Below are positions 3,901 through 52,363 of a DNA stretch of 64,000 nucleotides, piece after piece. The notes under the pieces were generated by a model. It saw only the letters and a list, made by a program, of their open reading frames with translations. It was not told the origin of the DNA and made no database searches. The translations under genes were made by a program, and so were the position numbers. The DNA is from Candidatus Uhrbacteria bacterium (lineage in GTDB: Bacteria; Patescibacteriota; Patescibacteriia; UBA9934). Location: assembly GCA_943359345.1 (NCBI GenBank), contig CALRHE010000002.1:705-64704 (forward strand). The letters run 5' to 3'. Every line of letters starts with the position of its first letter. The first letter of the stretch is position 1.

Positions 3901-4440
3901 ATGCCAAAGTTCACTCACTTCAAATTCTGCTTTATGGACAAGAAGCTTTTCGGTGGTTTGGCACTCATCTTACTCTTAGGGGCTGGCTGTACTGAAGCCA
4001 ACATCGTCGATACCACGGTTAATACTGGAAACCCAACTGAGACCTCTGCCATTACCGCGGATGAATCTGAAGCTAGCGGCACGGTTGAAACTGGGGTCGT
4101 GGTCGACATCAGCGGTGACATGATCGGCGGCGATGTCAAAGCCGAAATCGTAGTTGAGGCCAGCGTGAAAGAATTTACAGTTACCGGTGGCAACTTCGCC
4201 TTTTCTCCGACCAGTTTGAGCGTAAACAAGGGTGACACAGTACGCATTACCTTCAAAAATGCTGAGGGCTTTCACGACTTCGTAATTGATGAATTCGATG
4301 TCGCCACCAAACAAATCTCGGCCGCGACTGAAGAAACCGTAGAGTTTGTAGCCGACCAAGCTGGCAGTTTTGAATTTTATTGCTCGGTTGGTCAACATCG
4401 TCAATTGGGCATGAAGGGTACCTTGACCGTCACTGAATAA
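3901..4440 (+). CDS. cupredoxin-domain (type-1 copper) lipoprotein
   Basis: Lipobox LLGAGC after the internal Met at 3934. C-terminal ...HDFVIDEF...FYCSVGQHRQLGMKGTLTV carries the Cys/His/Met copper-ligand pattern of plastocyanin/azurin-like domains. Confidence 0.6.
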   Translation: MPKFTHFKFCFMDKKLFGGLALILLLGAGCTEANIVDTTVNTGNPTETSAITADESEASGTVETGVVVDISGDMIGGDVKAEIVVEASVKEFTVTGGNFAFSPTSLSVNKGDTVRITFKNAEGFHDFVIDEFDVATKQISAATEETVEFVADQAGSFEFYCSVGQHRQLGMKGTLTVTE

Positions 4441-24118: not shown

Positions 24119-26302
24119 ATGAGCCAGTATCTTGTTATTAAATCTGCGGACCTGGTTATTGACCCTCCCCAGGGCGAACTTGCTGTCCGCAGCGTCCTCC
24201 ATACTCTTCCGCAGGGCAAGGGCTGGGTTTTTGGGTTATTTACCCTAGAACACAAAGATGATATCGCCCGTGAACGAGTGGCCCATATCCTACTTAGCCA
24301 TCTAGAGCATTTGGCTGCTGACCTGACTGAAGAGACCAACGTGGTACGCCGTTTTGAACAAGCCTTGAGCCGAGTCAACCGCGATCTTGCACGAGCGAAT
24401 AAGGACCTGTCTTTGAACATCGACAAATTCCAGGCTGTGATAGGTGTGCTGTCTGGCGGACAGATATTCATGTCCGGCATTGGCCGCTTAAAAGCCTTAT
24501 TCCTCCACAAAACTGCTGAGCGCCGTTACGTTATTTACGAACTCGATGCTCAGTTTCATGATGGCCAGACTAAAACCTGGGATAAGCCCCTGGTAGCAGT
24601 CTTAGATGGCGAACTGAATCCTGGGGACATTTTCTACCTGGCAACCCCTGTCTCGCACCAAATGTTGGGCATGAACGAACTTCAGGACATTCTTGTCACT
24701 CTCCCTCCGGCTGGCGCCTTACAGCGCATACGCCAGTACTTACCCACGACTGAGCATTATGGCGGCTTGGCTTTCCATGCCCTAGCAGAGGACTTGACGG
24801 GTGTGACTCGCAGAGCCAACCCCATCATTTCGCTTCAAGAACTCGAAAATACCAAACAGCAAACCGCCAACGTGCTTGGTGATCAACAACCTGACCTAGT
24901 CAACACCGTCAAAGAAGTAGCCACGGGCATTAGCAAGAAGCTGTCTAGCCCAGGAATTAGGGGTGCGCAAGCCACCTTGAAGCGTGTCTTGGTGCTCGTC
25001 GTCAAAGGGCTGTCTCGTTTGGCAGCACTGCTAGCAACTCTGAGCGTGAAGTTTGCTGCCTGGCTCAAACGGCGGGTGGCGGATTCGCGCACCAACCGAG
25101 CTATGCGTCACGGTCTGGGCCGTACCAGAAAAATTGGCACACCTGGATTTGTGGATGCCACTCGAGCCTTGTTCTTGGAGCTGTCTACACCGCGCAAATT
25201 TATCTTACTTGGCTTCATGCTCGTCATGGTCATCCTCGGAGGCACAATCTTTATTAATGGTGGCGAGTCTGAAAAAAATAAATCTGAAGCCGCCTTTACT
25301 AACTCAGTCAATTCAATCCAAGATAAAATCCTGGCAGCTGAGGCCAGCTTGATCTATAGGAATAACGCTGAGGCTGTGCGCGCGCTCGAGGGGGCCGCCG
25401 CTACGCTTGAAGCCCTACCCCGTGATACCAATGATCGTCTTAACGAGGCTAATCGCTTAGCTGAAGAACTCACGGTACTACAGGCCAAAATTCGGGGTGT
25501 CACCATGGTTGAACCCGGTCTGTTAGCTGATCTACGTACGCTTGACTCTAGTGCAACACTGGTATCAGCTACCGGCACCATTAATGGGCTCATAGCTCTA
25601 GGTGATAATCTTGGCGTATATAAACTTGATCCGGCCGCCAGAGTTTGGGCTAAGCAAGAAACTATTAACGGGCCAATTTCTCGGATTGAATCGAGCACCA
25701 CTCTAGGGGCCGATGTCATCATTCTCGACGCCACCCAACAACTTGGTCGTATCGATCTCACTGCCCTCACCATGAACCCAATTGCAAGTGGCGCTAACAA
25801 CATGGCCAGCGTTGAGGACATTACTGTCTACAATGATTCGCTCTATGCTCTAACCAGCGTCAGCCAACAGGTAGTCAAGATGCGGCCACAAACGCCAAAC
25901 TTTGAAGCCGGTACAGCCTGGATTAGTGCGCACACAACTGATCTCACCACAGCCCGTGCACTCGCCATCGATTCTGACGTGTACATCCTGCTAGCCAACG
26001 ACATCATTAAATTCACCAGTGGTCGTGAACAAGACTGGCAAACCGCCACCATTGACCCTCCGCTGTCACAACCCGCCGACCTGTGGACAGCCCTTGAATC
26101 CGCCTACCTCTACGTGCTTGACCCAGCTGAAAAGCGTATTCTCGTGATTATCAAAGACACCGGCGCCATCCAAGCCCAGTATGTGTCAGATGACTTTGCC
26201 AGTGCTGTCGGGTTCGTCGTTGAAGAAGCTACCAGCAAAATCACCGTGATTACATCAACTCAGGCCCTTGAATTTACTCCTCAACACCTAATTGTCAATT
26301 AA
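24119..26302 (+). CDS. large membrane protein (cytoplasmic N-domain, one TM, extracytoplasmic C-domain), function unknown
   Basis: 727 aa; TM helix FILLGFMLVMVILGGTIFI near residue 355; the stop codon TAA lies inside the TTAA flank of the repeat element at 26299. Confidence 0.5.
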   Translation: MSQYLVIKSADLVIDPPQGELAVRSVLHTLPQGKGWVFGLFTLEHKDDIARERVAHILLSHLEHLAADLTEETNVVRRFEQALSRVNRDLARANKDLSLNIDKFQAVIGVLSGGQIFMSGIGRLKALFLHKTAERRYVIYELDAQFHDGQTKTWDKPLVAVLDGELNPGDIFYLATPVSHQMLGMNELQDILVTLPPAGALQRIRQYLPTTEHYGGLAFHALAEDLTGVTRRANPIISLQELENTKQQTANVLGDQQPDLVNTVKEVATGISKKLSSPGIRGAQATLKRVLVLVVKGLSRLAALLATLSVKFAAWLKRRVADSRTNRAMRHGLGRTRKIGTPGFVDATRALFLELSTPRKFILLGFMLVMVILGGTIFINGGESEKNKSEAAFTNSVNSIQDKILAAEASLIYRNNAEAVRALEGAAATLEALPRDTNDRLNEANRLAEELTVLQAKIRGVTMVEPGLLADLRTLDSSATLVSATGTINGLIALGDNLGVYKLDPAARVWAKQETINGPISRIESSTTLGADVIILDATQQLGRIDLTALTMNPIASGANNMASVEDITVYNDSLYALTSVSQQVVKMRPQTPNFEAGTAWISAHTTDLTTARALAIDSDVYILLANDIIKFTSGREQDWQTATIDPPLSQPADLWTALESAYLYVLDPAEKRILVIIKDTGAIQAQYVSDDFASAVGFVVEEATSKITVITSTQALEFTPQHLIVN

Positions 26303-26424
26303 CACAGATGATGAATCGATCAGTACAGATCTCACACAGATTGTGAAACTGAAAAGCGAGCTGGTTGGGCTCGCTTTTCACAGCTGTGTTAAATCTGTAA
26401 TTTGCGACTCTCTATCTGTGTTAA
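26299..26424. mobile_element. miniature inverted-repeat element, copy A (118-bp core flanked by TTAA)
   Basis: Terminal inverted repeats CACAGATGATG... and ...CTCTATCTGTG (consensus TTAACACAGATAG) plus sub-terminal ACAGATYTnACRCAG repeats; same length and end sequences as copy B at 50767. Confidence 0.5.
26351..26379. terminator. bidirectional terminator hairpin inside element A
   Basis: gAAAAGCGAGCtggttggGCTCGCTTTTc, a perfect 10-bp stem flanked by A and T runs, between a convergent gene pair. Confidence 0.6.
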
Positions 26425-26425
26425 T

Positions 26426-26827
26426 TTACTTGAGAGTCACTTTAGCACCAGCGGCTTCGAGCTTGGCCTTCATGTCGTCGGCTTCGGCCTGAGTGGCGTT
26501 TTCTTTAACGGCCTTAGGCGCGGCATCAACGATGTCCTTGGCTTCCTTCAGACCCAAACCAGTCAATTCACGCACAGCCTTGATCACGTTGATCTTGCTG
26601 TCACCGGCTGAAGTGAGCTCAACGGTAAATGAACTCTTCTCTTCAGCAGCGGCAGCGCCAGCAGCGGCTGGAGCAGCCATCATCATGGCTGGAGCAGCAG
26701 CTGAAACACCGAACTTGTCTTCCAGAACCTTTACCAATTCGGCTAGATCAAGTACCGACATCTTCTCAACGCTCTCAACGAGAGACTTAAACTTCTCTGG
26801 AACCTCTACGGATTTCATGTCAGACAT
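26426..26827 (-). CDS. rplL: 50S ribosomal protein L7/L12
   Basis: ...[23 protein letters not shown]...Ala-rich hinge...[18 protein letters not shown]... Confidence 0.9.
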
Positions 26828-38133: not shown

Positions 38134-39018
38134 ATGTTACTATTTTCGGTTCCGTGCCACCCCGCACTCCTGGAGGAACACATGCGTCAATCCCGTTGGC
38201 CGTGGCTGCACGGCGTTGTCATCCTGTTCATGTGCGCACTAATGGGCTGTGATCGGATTCAAGAACCTGATCGACAGACCAAGAATGTAGGCATGTCGGT
38301 GCCTGGTTGCGACTCTGACTGTCAGAACCGCATCCACCTCAGTCGGACCAAGGTCGCTCCGATCGAAGCCAACGAGGTCCGCTACGTCCTCAAGATCGTA
38401 CAGGACGAGTACTCTGCAAACCTCTGGCAAGCCCGTCTGAAGACGTGTCTTGACAAGTGGGAATACTTCGAACGTGCCCAGCGCGTCACCATGTACCCGG
38501 CCGGCCTCTTGGCTGGCAAGGCCTACGTGGAAGGCGCAGGTTGTCGCTTTCTCCGCTCCGGAGATGGTGGCTATGGCCCGATGCAGATCACATCGCCGAC
38601 AGCGCGTCACGTCAAAGACGTGGCCACCATGCTCGGCTTAAAGGCTAGCAACGTGAAGTGGAAAGAGGACTACTGGCACAATGTACTCCTCGGTGCTGTC
38701 ATGTTGTCGGACTTCGAAAATGAATTCGAATCAAGAGGTGTAGGTATCTTCGCCTACAATAGCGGACCAGGCGCGACACGCAAATACATGCGCAAAGCCA
38801 ACATCAAGGACTTCACTGGTCGGACCATCTCCGATTTCCGTGGAGCAATCCCGACTGGTTTCAGCGATGGCGCGCGACCTCGCATCTACCTGGACCGAGT
38901 CCTGGCGGGTGCTGTGCTCGTACAGCGAGCCAAGAACGGTCAGCCCACTACCGGCATCAAGCGCCTCGAACTTCACGACATTCCGGGTGCTGTGCCTGTT
39001 CAGGACAACGTCCAGTAG
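38134..39018 (+). CDS. lytic transglycosylase (SLT domain) lipoprotein
   Basis: ...GYGPMQITSPTA...NVLLGAVMLSDF...FAYNSGPGA... SLT family 1 motifs; probable lipobox LMGC after the Met at 38182; GC3-rich codon usage unlike its neighbours. Confidence 0.65.
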   Translation: MLLFSVPCHPALLEEHMRQSRWPWLHGVVILFMCALMGCDRIQEPDRQTKNVGMSVPGCDSDCQNRIHLSRTKVAPIEANEVRYVLKIVQDEYSANLWQARLKTCLDKWEYFERAQRVTMYPAGLLAGKAYVEGAGCRFLRSGDGGYGPMQITSPTARHVKDVATMLGLKASNVKWKEDYWHNVLLGAVMLSDFENEFESRGVGIFAYNSGPGATRKYMRKANIKDFTGRTISDFRGAIPTGFSDGARPRIYLDRVLAGAVLVQRAKNGQPTTGIKRLELHDIPGAVPVQDNVQ

Positions 39019-41298: not shown

Positions 41299-41922
41299 AT
41301 GCTTCCTCCACTCACAAAAAAACAACGCCAAGTCCTCGATTGCGTCGAGAACTTCGTGCGCCGCAACGGCTACACGCCGTCGTATCGGGAGATCGCCGAA
41401 AAACTCGGTTTATCATCTCCCGCTACGGTGCATCAGCACATCAAAGCACTGTGCGAGAAAGGCGTTATCAATACCGGGGAACACGGTGTAGCCAGATCTA
41501 TAGAGGTCGTCGAAACCATGCCTATGTCCCCGCTCGCGGTTATGCTGCCACTCTCTGGCCTAATCACGGCTGGTGAACCCATCGAAGCTGTTGAAGAACG
41601 TGAAGCCATGGCTATACCCAGTGACTTTGTCATGGATGCCATGAACTCGTACGTGCTCAAAGTCAAAGGTAGATCAATGATTGAAGACGGCATTTTCGAC
41701 GGCGACTACGTGATCATTGAACGCAACCCCTCACCCAAAAATGGAGATATCGTCGTGGCTCTACTCGACAATGCATACGCTACGCTCAAACGTTTCTATC
41801 GTGAGAAGGGTCACATCCGTCTTCAACCGGCTAACAGCACCATGAAGCCGATCATCGTCAAAGGCGACATCAACATTCAAGGAGTTGTAAGAGCAGTCAT
41901 GCGTAGGTTTTACAATATTTAA
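41299..41922 (+). CDS. lexA: LexA repressor
   Basis: N-terminal wHTH (LTKKQRQVLDCVENFVRRNGYTPSYREIAEKLGLSSPATVHQHIKAL) and a C-terminal S24 peptidase domain (VKGRSMIEDGIFDGDYVIIER...NGDIVVALLDNAYATLKRF). Confidence 0.85.
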   Translation: MLPPLTKKQRQVLDCVENFVRRNGYTPSYREIAEKLGLSSPATVHQHIKALCEKGVINTGEHGVARSIEVVETMPMSPLAVMLPLSGLITAGEPIEAVEEREAMAIPSDFVMDAMNSYVLKVKGRSMIEDGIFDGDYVIIERNPSPKNGDIVVALLDNAYATLKRFYREKGHIRLQPANSTMKPIIVKGDINIQGVVRAVMRRFYNI

Positions 41923-41932
41923 TCCCCCATTT

Positions 41933-42124
41933 ATGACCACAACCACACTTCGCCACTATCAAGTGGCGCCTGATTACGGCACTCCAATTAAGCCAACGCG
42001 TGAATCCGTACAGCGCGCTGCGCGTATCTGGTTCAATAAACGAAAACTACGCCAACGCACAAGGCAGGTTATGGATTTCATGAGTCTGCCGCAACGAGTG
42101 ACCTTGAAGTATAAGTTACGATAA
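41933..42124 (+). CDS. hypothetical small basic protein in the lexA-dinB cassette
   Basis: 63-aa ORF starting 10 nt after the lexA stop; no known domain. Confidence 0.25.
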   Translation: MTTTTLRHYQVAPDYGTPIKPTRESVQRAARIWFNKRKLRQRTRQVMDFMSLPQRVTLKYKLR

Positions 42125-42209
42125 ATCTATATACCACTCTGAGGTAACGAAGGGTTAGGTCCCCCAGGCTGAAACGCGGCGGGCTACTAATCCTTCGTCG
42201 ATACTCAGG

Positions 42210-42470
42210 ATGGTCAGAGAGTCTATGCATGAATTCATGAACGACCCCATTGATGTATCTGTCGACTTCACCGGCCGCAGGATAAAACCCAAGCGCGTGC
42301 GTTGGGGTACTAAGGTGTATGACATCGATAAAGTTAATCTTGTACACGGAGCCCGAGAAGGCCAAAAACGTATTTTCTATTTCTCAGTCTCAGACACTGC
42401 CAATTTCATGAAACTTAAACTGGATACGGAAACTTTAGAATGGCGTTTGGTAGAAGTTTACGCGCCATGA
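42210..42470 (+). CDS. hypothetical small protein in the lexA-dinB cassette
   Basis: 86-aa ORF between lexA and the Y-family polymerase; no confident domain. Confidence 0.3.
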   Translation: MVRESMHEFMNDPIDVSVDFTGRRIKPKRVRWGTKVYDIDKVNLVHGAREGQKRIFYFSVSDTANFMKLKLDTETLEWRLVEVYAP

Positions 42471-42484
42471 ACGCCAGGCGCCAC

Positions 42485-42576
42485 AGACCCTGAAAGACAG
42501 TGAAGGGTCTAGCAGACTGGAAATGAAGTGTCTCCAATAACAAATTCATGAGACCCTTCGCCTACGCTCAGGGTCT
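42485..42576 (+). repeat. pair of identical-stem palindromes, AGACCCT-N12-AGGGTCT twice
   Basis: First hairpin at 42485..42510 and second at 42551..42576; the second ends 10 nt before the dinB start codon. Confidence 0.5.
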
Positions 42577-42585
42577 GGTTGTGCT

Positions 42586-43857
42586 ATGGCAATAATCCTC
42601 CATCTGGACTTTAATTCATATTTTGCGTCTGTCGAACAACAAGCAAACCCGTTTTTGCGTGGACTTCCGATTGCAGTTGCCGGTAAGGGACGACACTCAA
42701 TCGATGTCGCTGCCGCTCATCAAGGTTCAGCTCGAATTACAATCGACCAACTCTCGTTTCAAAGATCAGTCGTCACCACCGCCTCGCGCGAAGCCAAACG
42801 ACGGGGTGTAAAAACAGCCATGGGAACCTGGCAAGCCCGTAAGATTTGTCCCGAAATGCTGGTCATTCCTGGTGATCCTCAAAAATACGGTGACATCACC
42901 AAACGCTTCATGGCCATTCTCCGGCGCTATGCAGATGTGGTCCAACAATTCAGTACTGACGAAGCCTTTGCTGATATTACTTGTGCTTGCGGTGGCGACT
43001 ATTTGGGGGCCACTATTCTGGCTCAGAGCATTAGAGCTGAGATTGCTTTGGAGTGCGGCGAATACTGTACGGTCTCAATTGGGATCGCAAGTAATAAATT
43101 TTTAGCTAAACTGGCGTCTGAATCTAAAAAACCCAACGGCCTAACCGTCGTACCGCCCCATGAAGCCGAAGACTTTGTGCTCACGCGGCCACTGGCAGAT
43201 TTTTGTGGTATTGGCCACCGTATTGAAAAGCATCTCGAAAGACTAGGGGCTACCTCGGTGGCTACCCTGCGGCAACTACCCCTATCCTTGTTGCTACGCG
43301 AATTTAAAAGCTACGGTTATTTTATTTATAACTCTGCTCGCGGCTTGGGTTCAGATGAACTAGAGCCAAACGAAGATCCAAAATCTATTGGCAACTCCTA
43401 CACCTTTCCCCACAACCTCAAGAACGAACAGGAAATCTATCGTAACTTATTAGCCCTAGCGGATCGGGTGGCTTGGCGTATGCGTAAACAAAATTTTGTG
43501 GCCACGCACATTGCTGGCTACGTACGCTACGGAGATTTTGGAGGCTACGGTTTTCACAGACGCTGCCAAGATCCACTCATAGATGGCTTAGACATAGCCA
43601 ACACGGCCTGGGAAATCATGAAAACACGTATTGACGCGCAAAAAGGCGTGCGGCTGATTGGCGTTTCTGCTAGTGGCTTATTGCCGCTTGGTGGAAGTGA
43701 CTCTCTGTTTGATTCTCAACGACGCAAAACCCGAGCTCTGAAGGCACTGGACCAAGTCACAGATAAATACGGTAGTGGTGTTTGGCAACGAGCCTCAACC
43801 CTGCAAACCAATTTCAAAGAACGGGTGAGCGGTTGGCATTATGACCATGAGAGTTAA
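42586..43857 (+). CDS. dinB: Y-family DNA polymerase (DinB/Pol IV-like)
   Basis: ...ILHLDFNSYFASVEQ... (catalytic Asp), ...FSTDEAFADIT... (DE); an insertion of about 25 aa after IAVAG. Confidence 0.8.
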   Translation: MAIILHLDFNSYFASVEQQANPFLRGLPIAVAGKGRHSIDVAAAHQGSARITIDQLSFQRSVVTTASREAKRRGVKTAMGTWQARKICPEMLVIPGDPQKYGDITKRFMAILRRYADVVQQFSTDEAFADITCACGGDYLGATILAQSIRAEIALECGEYCTVSIGIASNKFLAKLASESKKPNGLTVVPPHEAEDFVLTRPLADFCGIGHRIEKHLERLGATSVATLRQLPLSLLLREFKSYGYFIYNSARGLGSDELEPNEDPKSIGNSYTFPHNLKNEQEIYRNLLALADRVAWRMRKQNFVATHIAGYVRYGDFGGYGFHRRCQDPLIDGLDIANTAWEIMKTRIDAQKGVRLIGVSASGLLPLGGSDSLFDSQRRKTRALKALDQVTDKYGSGVWQRASTLQTNFKERVSGWHYDHES

Positions 43858-45119: not shown

Positions 45120-45143
45120 AGTGGCTCGAGTATAACATTTTGG

Positions 45144-47999: not shown

Positions 48000-49010
48000 T
48001 TAGGCTTGGTGGGCGGCCATTAAAACTAATTCTGCTAAACGATTGGCATAACCCCACTCATTATCATACCAGGCCACGACCTTTATAAGGTCGCCGTCAA
48101 CCACATTCGTCAGTGCCAGGTCGACTATGGCTGAGCGCGAGTCACCCCGATAATCAGACGACACGAGCGGCTCAGAACTAACTCCCAAAATTCCTTTAAG
48201 GTGAGCTTGTTTACTAGCTTTTTCTAATATTGCGTTAACTTGGTCTTTAGTAACTTTTTGTTTCAACAAAAAAGTCATGTCGGCTAGGGACACAGTTGAA
48301 ATCGGTACACGCACTGACAAACCATCGAAGCGACCCTTGAGCTCAGGAATAGTTTTTGTTACGGCGATAGCGGCGCCCGTTGTTGTCGGCACTATGTTTT
48401 CAGCGGCTGCACGACCTTCGCGTAAATCTTTCTTAGGTCCGTCGACGAGCGATTGAGAGGCTGTGTAACCGTGCACTGTCGTCATGATAGCTTTCTTGAT
48501 GCCAAAAGCTTCTTCAATCACGGCCGTGATCGGAGCCACACAGTTGGTGGTGCATGAAGCGTTGCTAATTATTTGGTGAGTATCAGTTTTTAAATCCTTG
48601 TCGTTGACACCGCGTACGTAGACCGGAATCTCGCCTTTACCAGGAGCTGACAAAACTACTCGGCGTGCACCGGCCGTAATGTGAGCGATAGCCTGGTCCT
48701 CACTCGTAAACAATCCGGTTGACTCGATGACAACGTCAACCGCGTGTTTACGCCAGGGCAACATAGTTGGGTCTTTTTCGGCGTAGACTGGAATCTTTTT
48801 TCCGCCGATTACCAACATGTTCGAACCAGCAGCTTTTACAGGCACGTTCCACATCCCGTAGTTACTGTCATATTGCAGCAAATACGCCAAGGTCTGGGCA
48901 TCCGCCAAATCATTAATGGCTACCACCTCCAAATCAGGGTGTTCAAACCAAGCCGCTTTTAATACTGCTCTACCAATCCTGCCAAAGCCGTTAATTGCTA
49001 CTCTAACCAT
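48000..49010 (-). CDS. gap: glyceraldehyde-3-phosphate dehydrogenase
   Basis: VRVAINGFGRIGR...ASCTTNC... Confidence 0.9.
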   Translation of the reverse strand: MVRVAINGFGRIGRAVLKAAWFEHPDLEVVAINDLADAQTLAYLLQYDSNYGMWNVPVKAAGSNMLVIGGKKIPVYAEKDPTMLPWRKHAVDVVIESTGLFTSEDQAIAHITAGARRVVLSAPGKGEIPVYVRGVNDKDLKTDTHQIISNASCTTNCVAPITAVIEEAFGIKKAIMTTVHGYTASQSLVDGPKKDLREGRAAAENIVPTTTGAAIAVTKTIPELKGRFDGLSVRVPISTVSLADMTFLLKQKVTKDQVNAILEKASKQAHLKGILGVSSEPLVSSDYRGDSRSAIVDLALTNVVDGDLIKVVAWYDNEWGYANRLAELVLMAAHQA

Positions 49011-49151
49011 ATTGTCTAGATTATAACATTAAGTCTGGAATATGGGGTCGACTATCACTGCCAGATGGCCATAAATAGGCCAGTTTTCACAGTCCTGCAT
49101 AAAAAATCTAAAAAAAATGGCTAACCTACGCTAAAAAGCCCTATTTTTTAC

Positions 49152-49180
49152 TTGACTTTTAGGCTAGTAAATGCTATCCT
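49152..49180 (+). promoter_or_regulatory. sigma70-type promoter, TTGACT-N17-TGC-TATCCT
   Basis: Third copy of the promoter architecture, followed by the conserved TCCGGGTTGC box also seen downstream of the 14145 promoter. Confidence 0.45.
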
Positions 49181-49278
49181 TCCGGGTTGCCTCTGGGCAT
49201 CCGTTCTCGAAAGCTAAAGCTGGTCGGGAATGCCTTCACAATCAAAGCCCCAGAATAGTCTGGGGTTGGGAGATCGAC

Positions 49279-50673
49279 ATGAACAGCAATCGCCTGCTGC
49301 CGCTCATCGGCATGCTTGCCACCCTCAACCTGTCCGCCTGCGCCATCGAGCGTGGAGCGGAAAAGCCCGCCAACACGCCCTCGCCGGCTCCGGCCTTCGA
49401 GGACACCGTTCCGAGCTTCGGCGAGGCGCCCCCGGCGCCTCCAGCCGACGACACCGAACCCGTCGATCTGGACGGTGACGACGACGGCTTCAACGCCGAC
49501 GTCGACTGCGACGACGCCGACCCGGGCATCAACCCCGGTGCATCCGACGACACCTGCAACGGCGTCGATGAGAACTGCGATGGCGCCGATCTGAACGTCA
49601 GCTTGCGCATGCTCGGCAACGAGTGTGGCAGCGTCGACGCGGACAGCGACAACTACATGGATTTCGGCTTCGACGAAGACGGAGTCCCGTACGTGGTCGA
49701 CTGCGACGACGCCAACCCGCTCGTCAACCCCGGCATGACCGAGGTGACGTACGACGGGCTCGACCAGGACTGCGATGCCACCACCCTGGACGACGATCTC
49801 GACCAGGACAGCTTCCTCCTGATCGATGATTGCAACGACGCCGACCCGGACATCAACCCGGACGCAGTCGAGATCTGCGGCAACGACGTCGATGAGGATT
49901 GCGATGATTCGGCGCCAGCGCTCGGTGCGATCTTCCCGGATGCCGACGGTGACGGGTACGGAGACATGAACTCCGGCGACATCGACACTTTCGTGTGCGA
50001 GGACGCTGTCCCCGAGGGCTTCGTCTTCGGTGATCGCCTGGACTGCGATGACCTCGATCCCGCCATCCACCCGGACGCGCCCGTCATCTACTATGACGCT
50101 GTCGACGACAACTGCGACGGCATCGTGGAAGACGACCAGGACTGCGACGGCTACCTGCTCGCGGTCGACTGCGATGACCTCGATCCCGCCATCCACGAAG
50201 ACTGCGAGGTCGTCGTGGAAGACCCGCCGGAAGAGCCGGTGGTCGAAGATCCGGTTGTGGCCTTCTGCGACGTGGGCTTCAGCATCGTGAGCGGCGTGTT
50301 CATCGCTCCGGCAGGGTCGACCTTCGTGTCGATCTACGGACGCCGCACCGGCTCCGACATGTCATTCAGCGATGACGTGTCGTGGACGGACGAGATCAGC
50401 GATCCCACCGACATGACCGTCGTCTACCTGGGCAACACCGTCGCGTTCCTGCTCGACACCTGCGTCGAAGATGCGGATGCCGAGTGGGTCGTCAACGGCG
50501 TCTACACGGATGCCGACGGCGACAGCCACTGGATCTGCGAAGGCGGGGCTCTCACCACCGTCTTCCAGGAAGCCTGGTACGACCTCGGCGCGGACGACGC
50601 CTTCGACCTGCCCGTCACCGCCGACGTGTGGGACCCCGCCGGCTTCGGCTGCGACGCCACCTGGTCCATGTGA
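49279..50673 (+). CDS. lipoprotein with tandem MopE-like Cys/Asp-rich putative metal-binding repeats; compositionally foreign (GC-rich)
   Basis: GGGAG RBS then ATG. Lipobox LNLSAC. At least five CDDxDPxINP...C-containing repeats. Codons are almost all G/C-ending (gac, tgc, ggc, gtc), which opens ORFs in all six frames. The stop is TGA. Confidence 0.6.
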   Translation: MNSNRLLPLIGMLATLNLSACAIERGAEKPANTPSPAPAFEDTVPSFGEAPPAPPADDTEPVDLDGDDDGFNADVDCDDADPGINPGASDDTCNGVDENCDGADLNVSLRMLGNECGSVDADSDNYMDFGFDEDGVPYVVDCDDANPLVNPGMTEVTYDGLDQDCDATTLDDDLDQDSFLLIDDCNDADPDINPDAVEICGNDVDEDCDDSAPALGAIFPDADGDGYGDMNSGDIDTFVCEDAVPEGFVFGDRLDCDDLDPAIHPDAPVIYYDAVDDNCDGIVEDDQDCDGYLLAVDCDDLDPAIHEDCEVVVEDPPEEPVVEDPVVAFCDVGFSIVSGVFIAPAGSTFVSIYGRRTGSDMSFSDDVSWTDEISDPTDMTVVYLGNTVAFLLDTCVEDADAEWVVNGVYTDADGDSHWICEGGALTTVFQEAWYDLGADDAFDLPVTADVWDPAGFGCDATWSM

Positions 50674-50766
50674 CCACTCAGGCCGCCTACTTGTTCGTGT
50701 GCACTCTGTGCGCACGGGCAGGTATGGCGGCCTTTTGAATTACCGCACTTTGTCTTCACCGTTTAT

Positions 50767-50892
50767 TTACACAGATAGTTAAAGCCTTAACAGATTTTAC
50801 ACAAGTACAAAATACGAGTCCTGATAGAGACCCGTATTTCGTTGTCCGTATCTGCGTAAAATCTGTAATCGCCTAATCACTATCTGTGTTAA
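50767..50892. mobile_element. miniature inverted-repeat element, copy B (118-bp core, TTTA/TTAA flanks)
   Basis: TIRs TTTACACAGATAG... and ...CTATCTGTGTTAA; an internal inverted ACAGATTTTAC repeat; the right TTAA contains the tsf stop codon. Confidence 0.5.
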
Positions 50893-51482
50893 TTCCCCAA
50901 AGTCAAACGCACAAAACGACCGATGCGAATATTTTCTCCAATAGCAGCAACTTTCTGTTCGAGTAAGTTAGCAATCGTGATGGCGTCATCTTTTACAAAC
51001 TTCTGATCCATGAGCACGATGTCTTCATAAAACTTGTTGAGCTTGCCGTCCAGGATTTTTTCAATGACTTCGGCTGGTTTACCCTCAGCTTTTAGCTGCT
51101 CGACATGAAAAGCTTTCTCTTTCTGAACTACTTCATCGGGAACATCAGCTCGAGAGGTGTATTGCGGGGCGGCGGCTGCGATGTGCAACGCTAGGTCCTG
51201 GCAGAAGTTTATGAAGTCTTGGTTACGAGCTACAAAGTCGGTCTCACACATAATCTCCACCATCACGGCCACCTTGCCGTTTGAATGAGTATAAGTGTGA
51301 ACCCGTCCTTCAGCGGTAGCGCGGTCAGCCTTTTTAGCCATTTTGAGAGCGCCACTCTTACGCAACCATTCAAGCGCTGCCTCCATGTTTCCGTTAGTTT
51401 CAGTGAGAGCCTTCTTGGCATCCATCATGCCGGCACCCGTCATTTCACGTAGCTTGGCAACGTCGCCTGCGGTTATTGTCAT
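50889..51482 (-). CDS. tsf: elongation factor Ts (short form)
   Basis: ...ITAGDVAKLREMTGAGMMDAKKALTETNGNMEAALEWLRKSG... UBA-like N-domain and a core domain. Confidence 0.85.
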   Translation of the reverse strand: MTITAGDVAKLREMTGAGMMDAKKALTETNGNMEAALEWLRKSGALKMAKKADRATAEGRVHTYTHSNGKVAVMVEIMCETDFVARNQDFINFCQDLALHIAAAAPQYTSRADVPDEVVQKEKAFHVEQLKAEGKPAEVIEKILDGKLNKFYEDIVLMDQKFVKDDAITIANLLEQKVAAIGENIRIGRFVRLTLGN

Positions 51483-51483
51483 A

Positions 51484-52326
51484 TTATTTCTTGTCAGCGA
51501 GCTTATCGGCCGTCTTCAGACTCGCCATTTCTTCTTTGATTTTATTATCCAGCTCATCAACAACCTCCTTAGCTTCAGCTGAAACACGAACTTCTTCTTC
51601 AAGCTGCTTGCGTACTTGAGCGGCGGCTTGAGCCTCAGAGGCTGCCTTAGTCTTGCCGTCCTGGACGGCGCCAGCCACAAGCTTGGTGATAAGGTCGAGA
51701 GAGTTTACAGCGTCATCGTTGCCAGGAATAACGTACTCGATACCGGTTGGGTTAACGTTACTATCAACCAAAGCAACCATAGGTACCCGCATAGTCTGAG
51801 CCTCACGTACAGCCGTCTTTTCATGACGCGCGTCCAAGATGAACAAGGCATCTGGCACACGAGTCAAAGTCGACAAACCACCAATCTTTTCATCCAGTTC
51901 AGCGATCTCACGATCAAACTGGAGCTGTTCGAGTTTAGTGTACTTCTTAAGTTCGCCTTTTTCACGCTTATCCTTCAAGTCGAGATAGTGACGGATTAAA
52001 CGCTGCAGCTGAACGTAGTTGGTAAGTGTACCACCAAGCCAACGAACGTTCACAAACGGCATACCGCATTCGGTAGCGTACTTAGCTACGATGGTCTGAG
52101 CCTGACGCTTGGTACCCACGAACAAAATGCTACCGCCACGGGACACCGTGTTGGTCACATAGTTCAAAGCTTTTTCGAGCTGCTCAGCTGTCTTTTCGAC
52201 GTTAATGATGTGCACGCCGCCGCGTTCACCAAAGATGAACGGTTTCATTTTGGGGTGCCACTTAGCGGACTGATGTCCAAAGTGCACACCGGCCTTGAGC
52301 ATCTCAAGGGATGAGGGGATCTTCAT
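51484..52326 (-). CDS. rpsB: 30S ribosomal protein S2 with a K/E-rich C-terminal extension
   Basis: ...MLKAGVHFGHQSAKWHPKMKPFIFGERGGVHIINVEKT...; start at the Met at 52326 by alignment with S2 N-termini. Confidence 0.85.
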   Translation of the reverse strand: MKIPSSLEMLKAGVHFGHQSAKWHPKMKPFIFGERGGVHIINVEKTAEQLEKALNYVTNTVSRGGSILFVGTKRQAQTIVAKYATECGMPFVNVRWLGGTLTNYVQLQRLIRHYLDLKDKREKGELKKYTKLEQLQFDREIAELDEKIGGLSTLTRVPDALFILDARHEKTAVREAQTMRVPMVALVDSNVNPTGIEYVIPGNDDAVNSLDLITKLVAGAVQDGKTKAASEAQAAAQVRKQLEEEVRVSAEAKEVVDELDNKIKEEMASLKTADKLADKK

Positions 52327-52363
52327 AACTTTCCTTTTAACCTCGATCAAGCCTCGCCTTGGG

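What the first reader, a model, noticed from the sequence alone, without database searches (positions are those of the whole stretch)
49279..50673. Compositionally foreign, Cys/Asp-rich MopE-like repeat lipoprotein gene (apparent HGT from a high-GC donor)
The gene is strikingly GC-rich with almost exclusively G/C-ending codons. This opens long ORFs in all six frames, so the ORF track shows many overlapping phantom ORFs at 49174..50782. It has a canonical GGGAG Shine-Dalgarno, unlike most native genes here, and a TGA stop. It encodes a lipoprotein (LNLSAC) with at least five repeats of the C-D-D-x-D-P-x-I-N/H-P ... C-x-x-x-D-x-x-C-D type. Those resemble the putative metal-binding MopE-like motif abundant in Myxococcota and other high-GC bacteria. 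It is nevertheless driven by a native-style promoter (TTGACT-N17-TGC-TATCCT). It is followed by a GC hairpin and then MITE-like element B.
Basis: partly seen in the sequence, partly recalled or inferred. Interest (0 to 1): 0.6.

Follow-up and report, generated by a model that had tools for sequence, protein, structure and literature searches.

The report
GC-rich surface lipoprotein gene, not recent transfer
This strikingly GC-rich gene encodes a cysteine/aspartate-rich surface lipoprotein. It belongs to a small family confined to one group of tiny (probably Patescibacteria) bacteria, and the family has kept its odd codon usage over long evolutionary time, so it is not a fresh import from a high-GC donor.

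Summary
The gene at 49279..50673 (+) has GC 0.65 and GC3 0.86, against 0.51±0.045 for 52 other ORFs (z=7.7). It has a lipobox, five MopE-type (PF11617) Cys/Asp modules, a native-style promoter, a rare Shine-Dalgarno site and a strong terminator. The overlapping ORFs are compositional phantoms.

The reading "HGT from a high-GC donor" is only partly supported.
- The gene is an insertion between tsf and gap: five more distant relatives have these two genes adjacent.
- Every close relative sampled carries one or two family members at the same site. These share the same promoter and leader, and their GC3 is 0.81-0.97.
- Silent sites of both the flanking genes and the orthologs are saturated between these lineages, so the bias cannot be a passive relic of a donor.
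- The C-terminal ~135-aa four-Cys β-sandwich domain has only 14 relatives among 1.84 billion representative proteins. All those traced sit in the same mid-GC lineage.
- A second locus repeats the pattern.

In the window's own lineage the gene is now losing GC3: 25 GC→AT changes against 0 AT→GC, while the flanks are balanced.

What keeps GC3 high elsewhere (selection, biased gene conversion or allele renewal) is unresolved. The gene is not a MopE copper-protein orthologue.

The parts
49152..49180 (+). Promoter: -35 TTGACT, 17-nt spacer, extended -10 TGCTATCCT
   Evidence: Consensus scan. It is conserved in all family members: TTGAC, G29-T31-A32 and T36 are invariant. The same style occurs 4 times in the window against 0.49 expected.
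49186..49278 (+). 5' leader of about 93 nt: a 5'-proximal hairpin (GUUGCC...GGCA), a middle hairpin, an SD-proximal hairpin at 49248-49265, and the Shine-Dalgarno GGGAG at 49269-49273
   Evidence: The sequence is conserved across orthologues. MFE is -36 kcal/mol, z=-2.2. RNAalifold recovers only the first hairpin, and weakly. There is no Rfam match. The transcription start is inferred from the -10 box, not shown.
49279..50673 (+). CDS, 464 aa plus TGA: acidic Cys/Asp-rich lipoprotein (20.5% Asp, 1 Lys, 6 Arg, 20 Cys)
   Evidence: The same protein is in public collections as P0124; P0001 is the same with an over-extended N-terminus.
49279..49341 (+). Type II signal peptide with lipobox L-S-A-C (Cys21)
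   Evidence: Read from the sequence. The lipobox Cys aligns in 11 of 12 family members that have an intact N-terminus.
49342..49488 (+). Pro/Ala/Asp-rich low-complexity linker (aa 22-70)
   Evidence: Sequence. pLDDT is below 50 in the full-length model.
49489..50238 (+). Five MopE-type Cys/Asp modules (aa ~75-103, 140-167, 183-210, 254-281, 296-310, the last truncated), separated by Asp-rich spacers
   Evidence: PF11617 E=1.5e-28, 4 stretches. Module positions come from Cys positions and a regular expression. One module matches residues 5-49 of MopE* 2VOV, E=4.8e-8.
50266..50670 (+). Family-specific C-terminal domain (aa 330-464): β-sandwich with four conserved Cys (C330, C395, C420 invariant; C458 nearly so)
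   Evidence: Alignment. AlphaFold2 mean pLDDT is 84 and pTM 0.79, all-β. Only generic Ig-like matches in the PDB, TM at most 0.49. It has 14 relatives in 1.84e9 representatives. It is the most divergent part among strains: dS 0.39, dN 0.10.
50680..50737 (+). Intrinsic terminator: 25-bp hairpin followed by UUUU
   Evidence: ΔG is -45.3 kcal/mol, z=-7.5, and 0 of 200 shuffles fold as well. Equivalent terminators follow the orthologues.
50765..50893 (.). Imperfect palindromic element (TTACACAGATAGT...ACTATCTGTGTTAA) that encloses the likely tsf terminator hairpin at 50807-50842. It is not part of the gene.
   Evidence: Inverted repeats. It varies by insertion and deletion among strains: L092 lacks 56 nt on the left, L087 and L088 lack 27 nt on the right. 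A second element of the same build lies at about 26297-26430.

Best explanation
The gene encodes a membrane-anchored, strongly acidic cell-surface lipoprotein. It belongs to a small, fast-evolving family endemic to one lineage of small-genome bacteria, probably Patescibacteria/CPR.

Architecture. The protein has a type II signal peptide and lipobox, then a disordered Pro/Ala/Asp linker. Next come five MopE-type Cys/Asp modules. I infer that these are disulfide-stabilised and bind divalent cations, forming a stalk. At the end sits a family-specific Ig-like β-sandwich with four conserved Cys. This is the part that varies most among strains, so I infer it is the interaction surface, acting in adhesion to a partner cell or substrate or as a target of phage.

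Expression unit. The gene is a monocistronic unit with a strong native-type promoter, a structured leader, a Shine-Dalgarno site that is rare in this genome, and a strong terminator.

History. The family entered the tsf-gap junction in the ancestor of a sub-clade. It has since been inherited, tandemly duplicated or lost, and shuffled by homologous recombination within the clade.

Composition. The extreme G/C-ending codon usage is a heritable trait of the whole family, seen at two or more loci. It has survived complete turnover of silent sites. It is therefore kept up by a fixation bias or by allele renewal, and is not a leftover of a recent donor. In the window's own lineage the bias is currently decaying at about the neutral rate.

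Shown: composition, synteny, silent-site saturation, family restriction, direction of recent changes, domain fold class. Inferred: surface location, cation binding, adhesin-like role, high expression, and the force that maintains GC3.
For: Composition and gene anatomy.

Same site in relatives:
- L002 has gap, then two MopE genes with GC3 0.966 and 0.945, then tsf.
- L001 has GC3 0.967 next to gap.
- L093 has 0.908 and 0.963. L094 has 0.93.
- L007 holds a fragment with GC3 0.97 after tsf.
- The strains L087-L092 have 0.81-0.82.
- The promoter and leader are conserved.

The insertion is derived: tsf and gap are adjacent in L008, L009, L010, L104 and L113.

Silent sites are saturated:
- Flank pS is 0.70-0.87 between the window lineage and the L002, L093 and L007 lineages.
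- The excess codon identity at conserved residues is -0.10 to +0.18 for MopE and 0.01 to 0.19 for the flanks.
- I used a two-state model in which 86% of flank silent changes are S<->W. One silent substitution per site per lineage would then leave GC3 at 0.59 or below, even starting from 1.0. The observed values are 0.81-0.97.

Family restriction: 14 proteins at E≤1e-3 in 1.84e9 representatives. Members whose flanks could be read lie in mid-GC context, and all measured members have GC3 0.72-0.97.

Second locus: L098 and L181 carry 3-4 lipoprotein genes with GC3 0.72-0.92 upstream of Wzy and glycosyltransferase genes at 0.48-0.56. Silent sites there are near saturation as well.

Recent changes: 25 GC→AT against 0 AT→GC with outgroups, and 7:0 without outgroups. 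The flanks show 45:48.

Recombination mosaic: dS rises from 0.04 to 0.14 to 0.39 along the gene. tsf has dS 0.5-1.3 while gap has 0.02-0.05.

Fold: pLDDT 84, β-sandwich.

Not an assembly artefact: the same junctions appear in independent JGI, ENA, NCBI and Logan assemblies.
Against: - No expression, localisation or binding data exist. The repeat region could not be modelled (pLDDT below 50), so the stalk and cation-binding picture rests on composition and analogy.
- The force that maintains GC3 is not identified.
  - Native highly expressed genes show only a weak preference for C-ending codons. At four-fold sites they often prefer T, for example rpsB with T 0.47. Ordinary translational selection therefore does not fit.
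  - The AT-rich spacers between tandem copies fit poorly with regional biased gene conversion.
  - The window lineage shows no GC-favouring fixation at present.
- The MopE gene tree and the flank tree disagree for L094: its flanks are L002-like, with tsf 92% identical, but its MopE is of the window/L001 type. Inheritance is therefore not simply vertical. Hidden paralogy and allele exchange cannot be told apart.
- The polarised counts may partly reflect imported tracts rather than new mutations.
- Assignment of the organism to Patescibacteria rests on weak best hits.
Confidence: 0.6

Rival explanations
1. Recent horizontal transfer from a high-GC donor such as Myxococcota or Actinomycetota. On this reading the present GC3 is the donor's signature and has not yet ameliorated.
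For: - GC3 is 7.7 sd above the native genes.
- Codon preferences resemble those of high-GC bacteria (my own knowledge, compared).
- The gene uses a Shine-Dalgarno site, unlike most native genes.
- The gene is absent from the tsf-gap junction of distant relatives.
- Many PF11617 proteins come from Myxococcota.
- In the window lineage GC3 is decaying like that of a foreign gene, 25:0.
Against: - Orthologues sit at the same site, with the same promoter and leader, in lineages whose flanks are silent-site saturated. All of them have GC3 0.81-0.97.
- The C-terminal domain is not found outside this lineage.
- Non-family hits reach no more than about 55% identity, and only over the repeats.
- No integrase, tRNA or other mobility gene adjoins the gene.
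- A second locus shows the same class of genes.
Confidence: 0.07
2. Serial renewal. The locus is a recombination hot spot where alleles are repeatedly replaced from an unsampled reservoir in which the family has high GC3, for example higher-GC members of the same clade. After each import the allele decays neutrally. No lineage with a mid-GC genome actually maintains the bias.
For: - Decay in the window lineage runs at about the neutral rate.
- My estimate is that the decay began only about 0.13-0.22 silent substitutions per site ago, comparable with the strain-level divergence (inference).
- There are mosaic dS values and breakpoints inside the gene.
- The gene tree and flank tree disagree for L094.
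- Genomic GC3 varies in the clade: the L094 flanks are at 0.64-0.73.
Against: - Four or more separate lineages hold copies at GC3 0.96-0.97 (L001, L002a, L093b, L097) beside flanks of 0.44-0.58. This would require imports in each lineage more recent than about 0.04 substitutions per site.
- L002b and the L007 fragment differ at 8 of 36 residues, yet both have GC3 0.97.
- No reservoir genome has been seen.
- Replacing only the CDS needs flanking homology, which only clade members can provide.
Confidence: 0.2
3. Functional rival: the protein is a MopE/CorA-like copper-acquisition protein, and the motifs are copper-binding sites.
For: - Pfam names PF11617 'Cu-binding_MopE'.
- One module matches the N-terminus of MopE*, E=4.8e-8.
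- The first 24 residues of MopE* may contribute to weak Cu(II) binding (PMC3423442).
- A cupredoxin lipoprotein is encoded elsewhere in the window, at 3901-4440.
Against: - Only residues 5-49 of MopE* match. The Cu(I) site (His132, His203, kynurenine) lies elsewhere, and those 46 residues are absent from the crystal structure (PMC3423442).
- The protein has only 3 His.
- There are no neighbouring copper genes: the flanks encode glycolysis and translation functions.
Confidence: 0.08
4. Assembly or binning artefact: a GC-rich fragment from another organism was joined into a mid-GC contig.
For: GC-rich genes break assemblies: contig L007 ends inside the gene, and several contigs hold little more than the gene.
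Against: The gene is embedded with native flanks on both sides in independent assemblies from JGI, ENA, NCBI and Logan, in several diverged lineages.
Confidence: 0.01

Closest known systems
PF11617 ('putative metal-binding motif' / 'MopE-related') repeat proteins of Myxococcota, Bacteroidota and other bacteria
   Same: Tandem C-D-D-x-D-P-x-[IV]-x-P ... C-x-G-x-D-x-[DN]-C-D modules in secreted, acidic proteins. Pfam score is 99 bits against a cut-off of 27. There are thousands of hits.
   Different: Those proteins end in other sorting or functional domains: the T9SS C-terminal domain PF18962, MYXO-CTERM, lectins and others. This family is lipid-anchored at the N-terminus and ends in a β-sandwich domain found almost nowhere else. 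Its codon usage is at odds with its own genome.
Methylococcus capsulatus MopE / MopE* (PDB 2VOV), a copper-repressible surface protein
   Same: One 45-residue Cys/Asp motif at the N-terminus of MopE*. Both are surface-associated or secreted.
   Different: There is no homology to the Cu(I)-binding body of MopE*. The shared motif is the part missing from the crystal structure, and its function is unproven (PMC3423442, PMC6189053).
Classical compositional (genomic) islands from horizontal transfer, with amelioration (Lawrence and Ochman model; my own knowledge)
   Same: A sharp GC3 discontinuity that coincides with an inserted gene. The gene is absent from distant relatives. GC→AT decay is in progress in the window lineage.
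   Different: The anomaly is shared by orthologues and paralogues across lineages with saturated silent sites, at two loci. It has therefore outlived the expected amelioration time. No mobility genes are present.
GC-rich multigene surface-protein families such as mycobacterial PE_PGRS (my own knowledge)
   Same: A lineage-restricted, repetitive, fast-evolving surface-protein family that is more GC-rich than its genome.
   Different: In PE_PGRS the excess GC comes largely from Gly/Ala repeats, that is from codon positions 1 and 2. Here GC2 is normal (0.41 against 0.40) and the excess sits at silent third positions.

Membership tests
PF11617 motif-containing proteins | Score above the Pfam gathering threshold for the Cys/Asp motif, in repeated copies | tested here: met
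   99.1 bits against a cut-off of 27, E=1.5e-28, 4 stretches. Five modules by inspection.
MopE/CorA copper-binding proteins (M. capsulatus type) | Homology across the MopE* body that carries the His/His/kynurenine Cu(I) site | tested here: not met
   Only residues 5-49 of 2VOV align. That segment is not the Cu(I) site and is absent from the crystal structure (PMC3423442).
MopE/CorA copper-binding proteins (M. capsulatus type) | Copper-repressible expression and copper binding | not testable with these tools
   No expression or metal data. No copper genes adjoin the gene.
Bacterial lipoproteins (type II signal peptide) | A positively charged n-region, a hydrophobic h-region, and a lipobox [LVI][ASTVI][GAS]C within about the first 35 residues | tested here: met
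   MNSNR-LLPLIGMLATLN-LSAC. The lipobox Cys aligns in 11 of 12 family members with an intact N-terminus.
Bacterial lipoproteins (type II signal peptide) | Lgt and LspA encoded in the genome; lipid modification shown | not tested
   Neither gene was looked for beyond the window. There is no biochemical evidence.
Recently horizontally transferred gene | Atypical composition relative to the host genome | tested here: met
   GC3 z=7.7.
Recently horizontally transferred gene | Absent from close relatives, or patchily distributed among them | tested here: not met
   Present at the same site in all close relatives sampled: L001, L002, L007, L087-L094. Absent only from distant relatives.
Recently horizontally transferred gene | A closely similar homologue in a plausible donor, or linkage to mobility genes | tested here: not met
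   No non-family hit exceeds about 55% identity, and that is over repeats only. The C-terminal domain is confined to this lineage. No integrase or tRNA adjoins the gene.
Rho-independent terminator | A stable GC-rich hairpin followed by a U-tract directly after the stop codon | tested here: met
   -45.3 kcal/mol, z=-7.5, followed by UUUU.
Known cis-regulatory RNA (riboswitch or leader) in Rfam | A match to an Rfam covariance model in the 5' leader | tested here: not met
   Only chance-level matches with E≥0.28. No match at gathering level in the window other than tRNAs.

The most novel reading that the evidence does not exclude
In mid-GC (about 49%) small-genome bacteria, one endemic family of Shine-Dalgarno-led, monocistronic surface-lipoprotein genes is actively held at GC3 of 0.9 or more. 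The force would be a gene-specific fixation bias: either selection on the mRNA or its codons, or GC-biased conversion tied to recurrent allele exchange. It would act against the genome's own mutation pressure and through complete silent-site turnover. This would be a natural within-genome experiment on what maintains GC content in bacteria.
Probability: 0.4. Interest if true: 0.75.

Novelty: new variant of a known kind. Interest (0 to 1): 0.55.

Why it matters
Compositional outliers are routinely read as recent horizontal transfers. In this case that shortcut fails. The same alien codon usage is shared by diverged orthologues and paralogues at two loci, so something other than donor ancestry must sustain it.

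If the bias is actively maintained, the family offers a clean test of selection against biased gene conversion as the cause of high GC in bacteria. The GC-rich genes and the normal genes sit side by side under the same mutational regime. One lineage, that of the window, has apparently lost the bias and can serve as a control.

The protein itself is a candidate surface or contact factor of an uncultivated, probably episymbiotic lineage, and it carries a previously undescribed C-terminal domain.

Tried and rejected
1. Searching the C-terminal domain alone with the search for homologous proteins returned nothing. The alignment A2 returned only 4 proteins. These are limits of the word index. The exhaustive HMMER search was what worked.

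It returned only relatives of 60% identity or less, and none carried the family. It was useful only for showing tsf-gap adjacency.

3. Riboswitch idea for the conserved leader: no Rfam match. RNAalifold supports only a weak first hairpin with little covariation. I did not pursue it.

4. Overlapping or antisense coding: rejected, because the alternative-frame ORFs match synonymous shuffles.

5. Ordinary translational selection as the cause of the codon bias: native genes show a modest gradient in C-ending codons, with NusG, rpsB and gap at the high end. However, four-fold sites of native genes keep T at 0.23-0.47, against 0.08 here. The other orthologues also push R-ending boxes to G. I rejected it as a sufficient cause.

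6. GC-biased local mutation: rejected for the window lineage, because recent changes are 25:0 GC→AT.

7. Bulk positive selection: ω is 0.25-0.38 among strains, so it is not shown. Only the 36-codon comparison of L007 with L002b has more non-synonymous than synonymous differences, and that sample is too small.

9. The full-length AlphaFold model was poor outside the C-terminal domain.
Full report
**What is there.** The window is about 49% GC throughout, apart from one block at 49.3-50.7 kb. The block is a single gene, 49279..50673 on the + strand, 464 codons with a TGA stop.
- Its GC is 0.649, with GC1 0.68, GC2 0.41 and GC3 0.858. The 52 other ORFs of at least 150 aa have GC3 0.512±0.045 and a maximum of 0.661, so z=7.7.
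- The shift starts and ends at the CDS boundaries. It is the same in the signal peptide and linker, the repeats and the C-terminal domain: 0.83, 0.85 and 0.89.
- The bias is mostly towards C-ending codons. C3 is 0.64 against 0.27 in the background, and G3 is unchanged.
- The many overlapping ORFs listed at 49174..50782 are what synonymous shuffles of this gene produce, so they are phantoms.

**Gene anatomy.**
- The promoter TTGACT-N17-TGCTATCCT lies at 49152-49180. It is of a style found 4 times in the window against 0.49 expected by chance.
- A structured leader of about 93 nt ends in GGGAG, 6 nt before the ATG.
- Only about 6 of 52 native ORFs have such a Shine-Dalgarno site. Several native genes, including gap and eno, carry a -10 box immediately before the start codon, which suggests leaderless mRNAs.
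- The in-frame ATG at 49171 used in some public gene calls (500 aa, P0001 and P0122) lies inside the promoter. The family alignment supports 49279 as the start.
- After the stop codon a 25-bp hairpin (-45.3 kcal/mol, z=-7.5) followed by UUUU forms a strong terminator.
- An imperfect palindrome at 50765-50893 follows. It encloses the probable tsf terminator and varies by insertion and deletion among strains.

**The protein.**
- It begins with MNSNRLLPLIGMLATLNLSAC, a canonical type II signal peptide and lipobox, which is conserved in the family.
- It is 20.5% Asp, with 1 Lys, 6 Arg and 20 Cys.
- Pfam finds PF11617 four times (E=1.5e-28). By inspection there are five modules, the last truncated.
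- The only solved-structure relative is M. capsulatus MopE* (2VOV), and only its residues 5-49 match. Those residues are missing from the crystal structure and are not the Cu(I) site (PMC3423442). Others have noted that PF11617 covers only a small, non-specific region of MopE (PMC6189053). The protein is therefore a carrier of the PF11617 motif, not a MopE orthologue.
- Residues 330-464 form a separate domain with four conserved Cys. AlphaFold2, run on a 13-sequence alignment, gives an all-β sandwich with pLDDT 84 and pTM 0.79. The PDB yields only generic Ig-like matches.
- An exhaustive HMMER search of 1.84 billion representative proteins found just 14 relatives of this domain. Most of them begin with a recognisable signal peptide and lipobox.

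**Relatives.** The flanks are gap (48000..49010, - strand) and tsf-rpsB (50889..52350, - strand). The nearest named relatives by EF-Ts are Patescibacteria MAGs at 51-57% identity. The phylum assignment is therefore probable, not certain.
- Contigs that carry family members show the same arrangement of gap, then the MopE gene or genes, then tsf, in several diverged lineages:
  - L002, with two tandem copies;
  - L001;
  - L093, with two copies;
  - L094;
  - L007, whose contig ends inside the gene;
  - the strain-level variants L087-L092.
- The promoter and the start of the leader are conserved in all of them.
- GC3 of these genes is 0.81-0.97, beside flanks of 0.44-0.73.
- More distant relatives (L008, L009, L010, L104, L113) have tsf and gap 69-512 nt apart with nothing between. 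The family is therefore an insertion that dates to the ancestor of a sub-clade.

**Why this is not a donor relic.**
- Between the window lineage and the L002, L093 and L007 lineages, the flanking genes are 72-91% identical in protein. Their pS is 0.70-0.87, which means silent sites are saturated.
- For the MopE orthologues I compared codon identity at conserved residues with the value expected if codons were drawn independently from each gene's own usage. The excess is -0.10 to +0.18, the same as for the flanks at 0.01 to 0.19.
- The silent sites of the orthologues have therefore turned over completely, yet they stayed G/C-ending.
- The flanks are at compositional equilibrium, with 45 GC→AT against 48 AT→GC, and 86% of their silent changes are S<->W. 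A two-state model with these values predicts that one silent substitution per site per lineage would bring GC3 to 0.59 or below, even from a start of 1.0. This is my own inference.
- A second locus repeats the result. L098 and L181 carry three or four consecutive lipoprotein genes upstream of Wzy and glycosyltransferase genes. One of them has the same C-terminal domain. Their GC3 is 0.72-0.92 against 0.48-0.56 for the neighbours, and the two lineages are near silent saturation.
- In the high-GC3 orthologues the bias affects all codon boxes: GAC 0.92, AAC 0.99, GAG 0.85, CAG 0.99. Four-fold sites have C above G, and A plus T together are about 0.05.

**What is happening in the window lineage.**
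- Among the strains W, L087 and L092, polarised silent changes in this gene are 25 GC→AT against 0 AT→GC. Without outgroups the count is 7:0. The flanks are balanced.
- GC3 here is 0.81-0.86, the lowest among the orthologues at this locus.
- This copy is therefore ameliorating at roughly the neutral rate. I estimate that the decay began about 0.13-0.22 silent substitutions per site ago.
- dS rises along the gene from 0.04 to 0.14 to 0.39. It is 0.5-1.3 in tsf but 0.02-0.05 in gap. Recombination breakpoints therefore lie in or near the gene.
- ω is 0.25-0.38, which is relaxed relative to the flanks but not above 1.
- L094 has L002-like flanks but a MopE of the window type. This points to hidden paralogy or to allele exchange within the clade.

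**Interpretation.** What remains is an old insertion whose family-wide GC3 is sustained in one of two ways: by a fixation bias, or by repeated renewal from an unsampled reservoir.
- Local GC-biased mutation is excluded, at least in the window lineage.
- Ordinary translational selection does not fit the four-fold sites.
- Regional biased gene conversion fits poorly with the AT-rich spacers between tandem copies.
- Serial import has to explain four or more lineages with copies at 0.96-0.97.

I cannot decide between these with sequence data alone. Functionally, the most economical reading is a lipid-anchored, disulfide-rich, cation-binding stalk that presents a variable Ig-like tip, from a strongly expressed monocistronic unit. 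That reading is inference.

**Verdict.** The gene is a new member of the PF11617 repeat proteins with a new C-terminal domain. The evolutionary behaviour of its codon usage is the unusual part.

Noticed in passing
window 50765-50893 and window ~26297-26430: Two elements of the same build: TTAACACAGAT..., a terminator-like hairpin, then ...ATCTGTGTTAA. The one beside the MopE gene varies by insertion and deletion among strains: L092 lacks 56 nt and L087/L088 lack 27 nt. They may be a small mobile palindromic element or a reused terminator module.
   Followed up: partly
window 49152-49278; L001 300-436; L002 6090-6220 and 7660-7802; L093 1120-1262 and 2925-3063; L097 100-232: Every family member carries its own conserved promoter (TTGAC-N17-TGnTAnnnT) and a leader that starts with a hairpin (GUUGCC-loop-GGYRAC). 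The leader ends in a second hairpin just before the Shine-Dalgarno site. There is no Rfam match and little covariation. It may be a stabiliser of the mRNA 5' end.
   Followed up: partly
window, upstream of many ORFs, e.g. 49011-49030 (gap) and 45120-45139 (eno): Most native genes lack a Shine-Dalgarno site (about 6 of 52 have one). Several have a TATAAT-like box within about 10 nt of the start codon, which suggests widespread leaderless mRNAs. The GC3-rich lipoprotein genes are the exception.
   Followed up: partly
L098 1-3399 and L181 3336-6813: A second island of three or four consecutive small acidic secreted or lipoprotein genes with GC3 0.72-0.92. It lies directly upstream of Wzy_C and glycosyltransferase genes at 0.48-0.56 and is conserved between two diverged lineages. 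L181 comes from the same sample as the window-type strain L087.
   Followed up: yes
window 50889-51482 (tsf) versus 48000-49010 (gap): Among near-identical strains, tsf has dS 0.5-1.3 while gap, 1.9 kb away, has dS 0.02-0.05. This is a sharp recombination mosaic whose boundary lies in or beside the MopE gene.
   Followed up: partly
window 38134-39018 (+): An SLT-domain lytic transglycosylase with a lipobox (LMGC) has the second-highest GC3 in the window (0.66) and a high share of C-ending two-fold codons (0.74).
   Followed up: no
window 3901-4440 (+): A small lipoprotein (lipobox LGAGC) with a cupredoxin/plastocyanin-like domain. This is the only copper-related gene seen in the window, and it lies 45 kb from the MopE-like gene.
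   Followed up: no
L002 2-748 (-): A third MopE-motif gene in the L002 lineage (GC3 0.88), downstream of enolase. The window has dinB (IMS) at the corresponding position instead.
   Followed up: no
L008 4200-4600: A stretch of about 400 nt at about 70% GC between queA and rpsB in a 52% GC Patescibacteria contig, with no convincing ORF. It may be a structured RNA gene.
   Followed up: no
L011 6971-8224: A low-GC relative has a different insertion at the same tsf-gap junction: a methyltransferase-like gene and a small Cys-rich ORF. The junction may therefore accept insertions repeatedly.
   Followed up: no
window 41299-43857: lexA and a dinB-type (IMS) polymerase gene lie next to the glycolytic cluster eno-pgk-(Pyr_redox)-gap. 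The arrangement is conserved in the strain variants L087 and L092.
   Followed up: no
window 49171-49278: Public gene calls (P0001 and P0122, 500 aa) start at an ATG inside the promoter, which adds 36 spurious residues. The 464-aa calls (P0121, P0123, P0124) are correct.
   Followed up: yes
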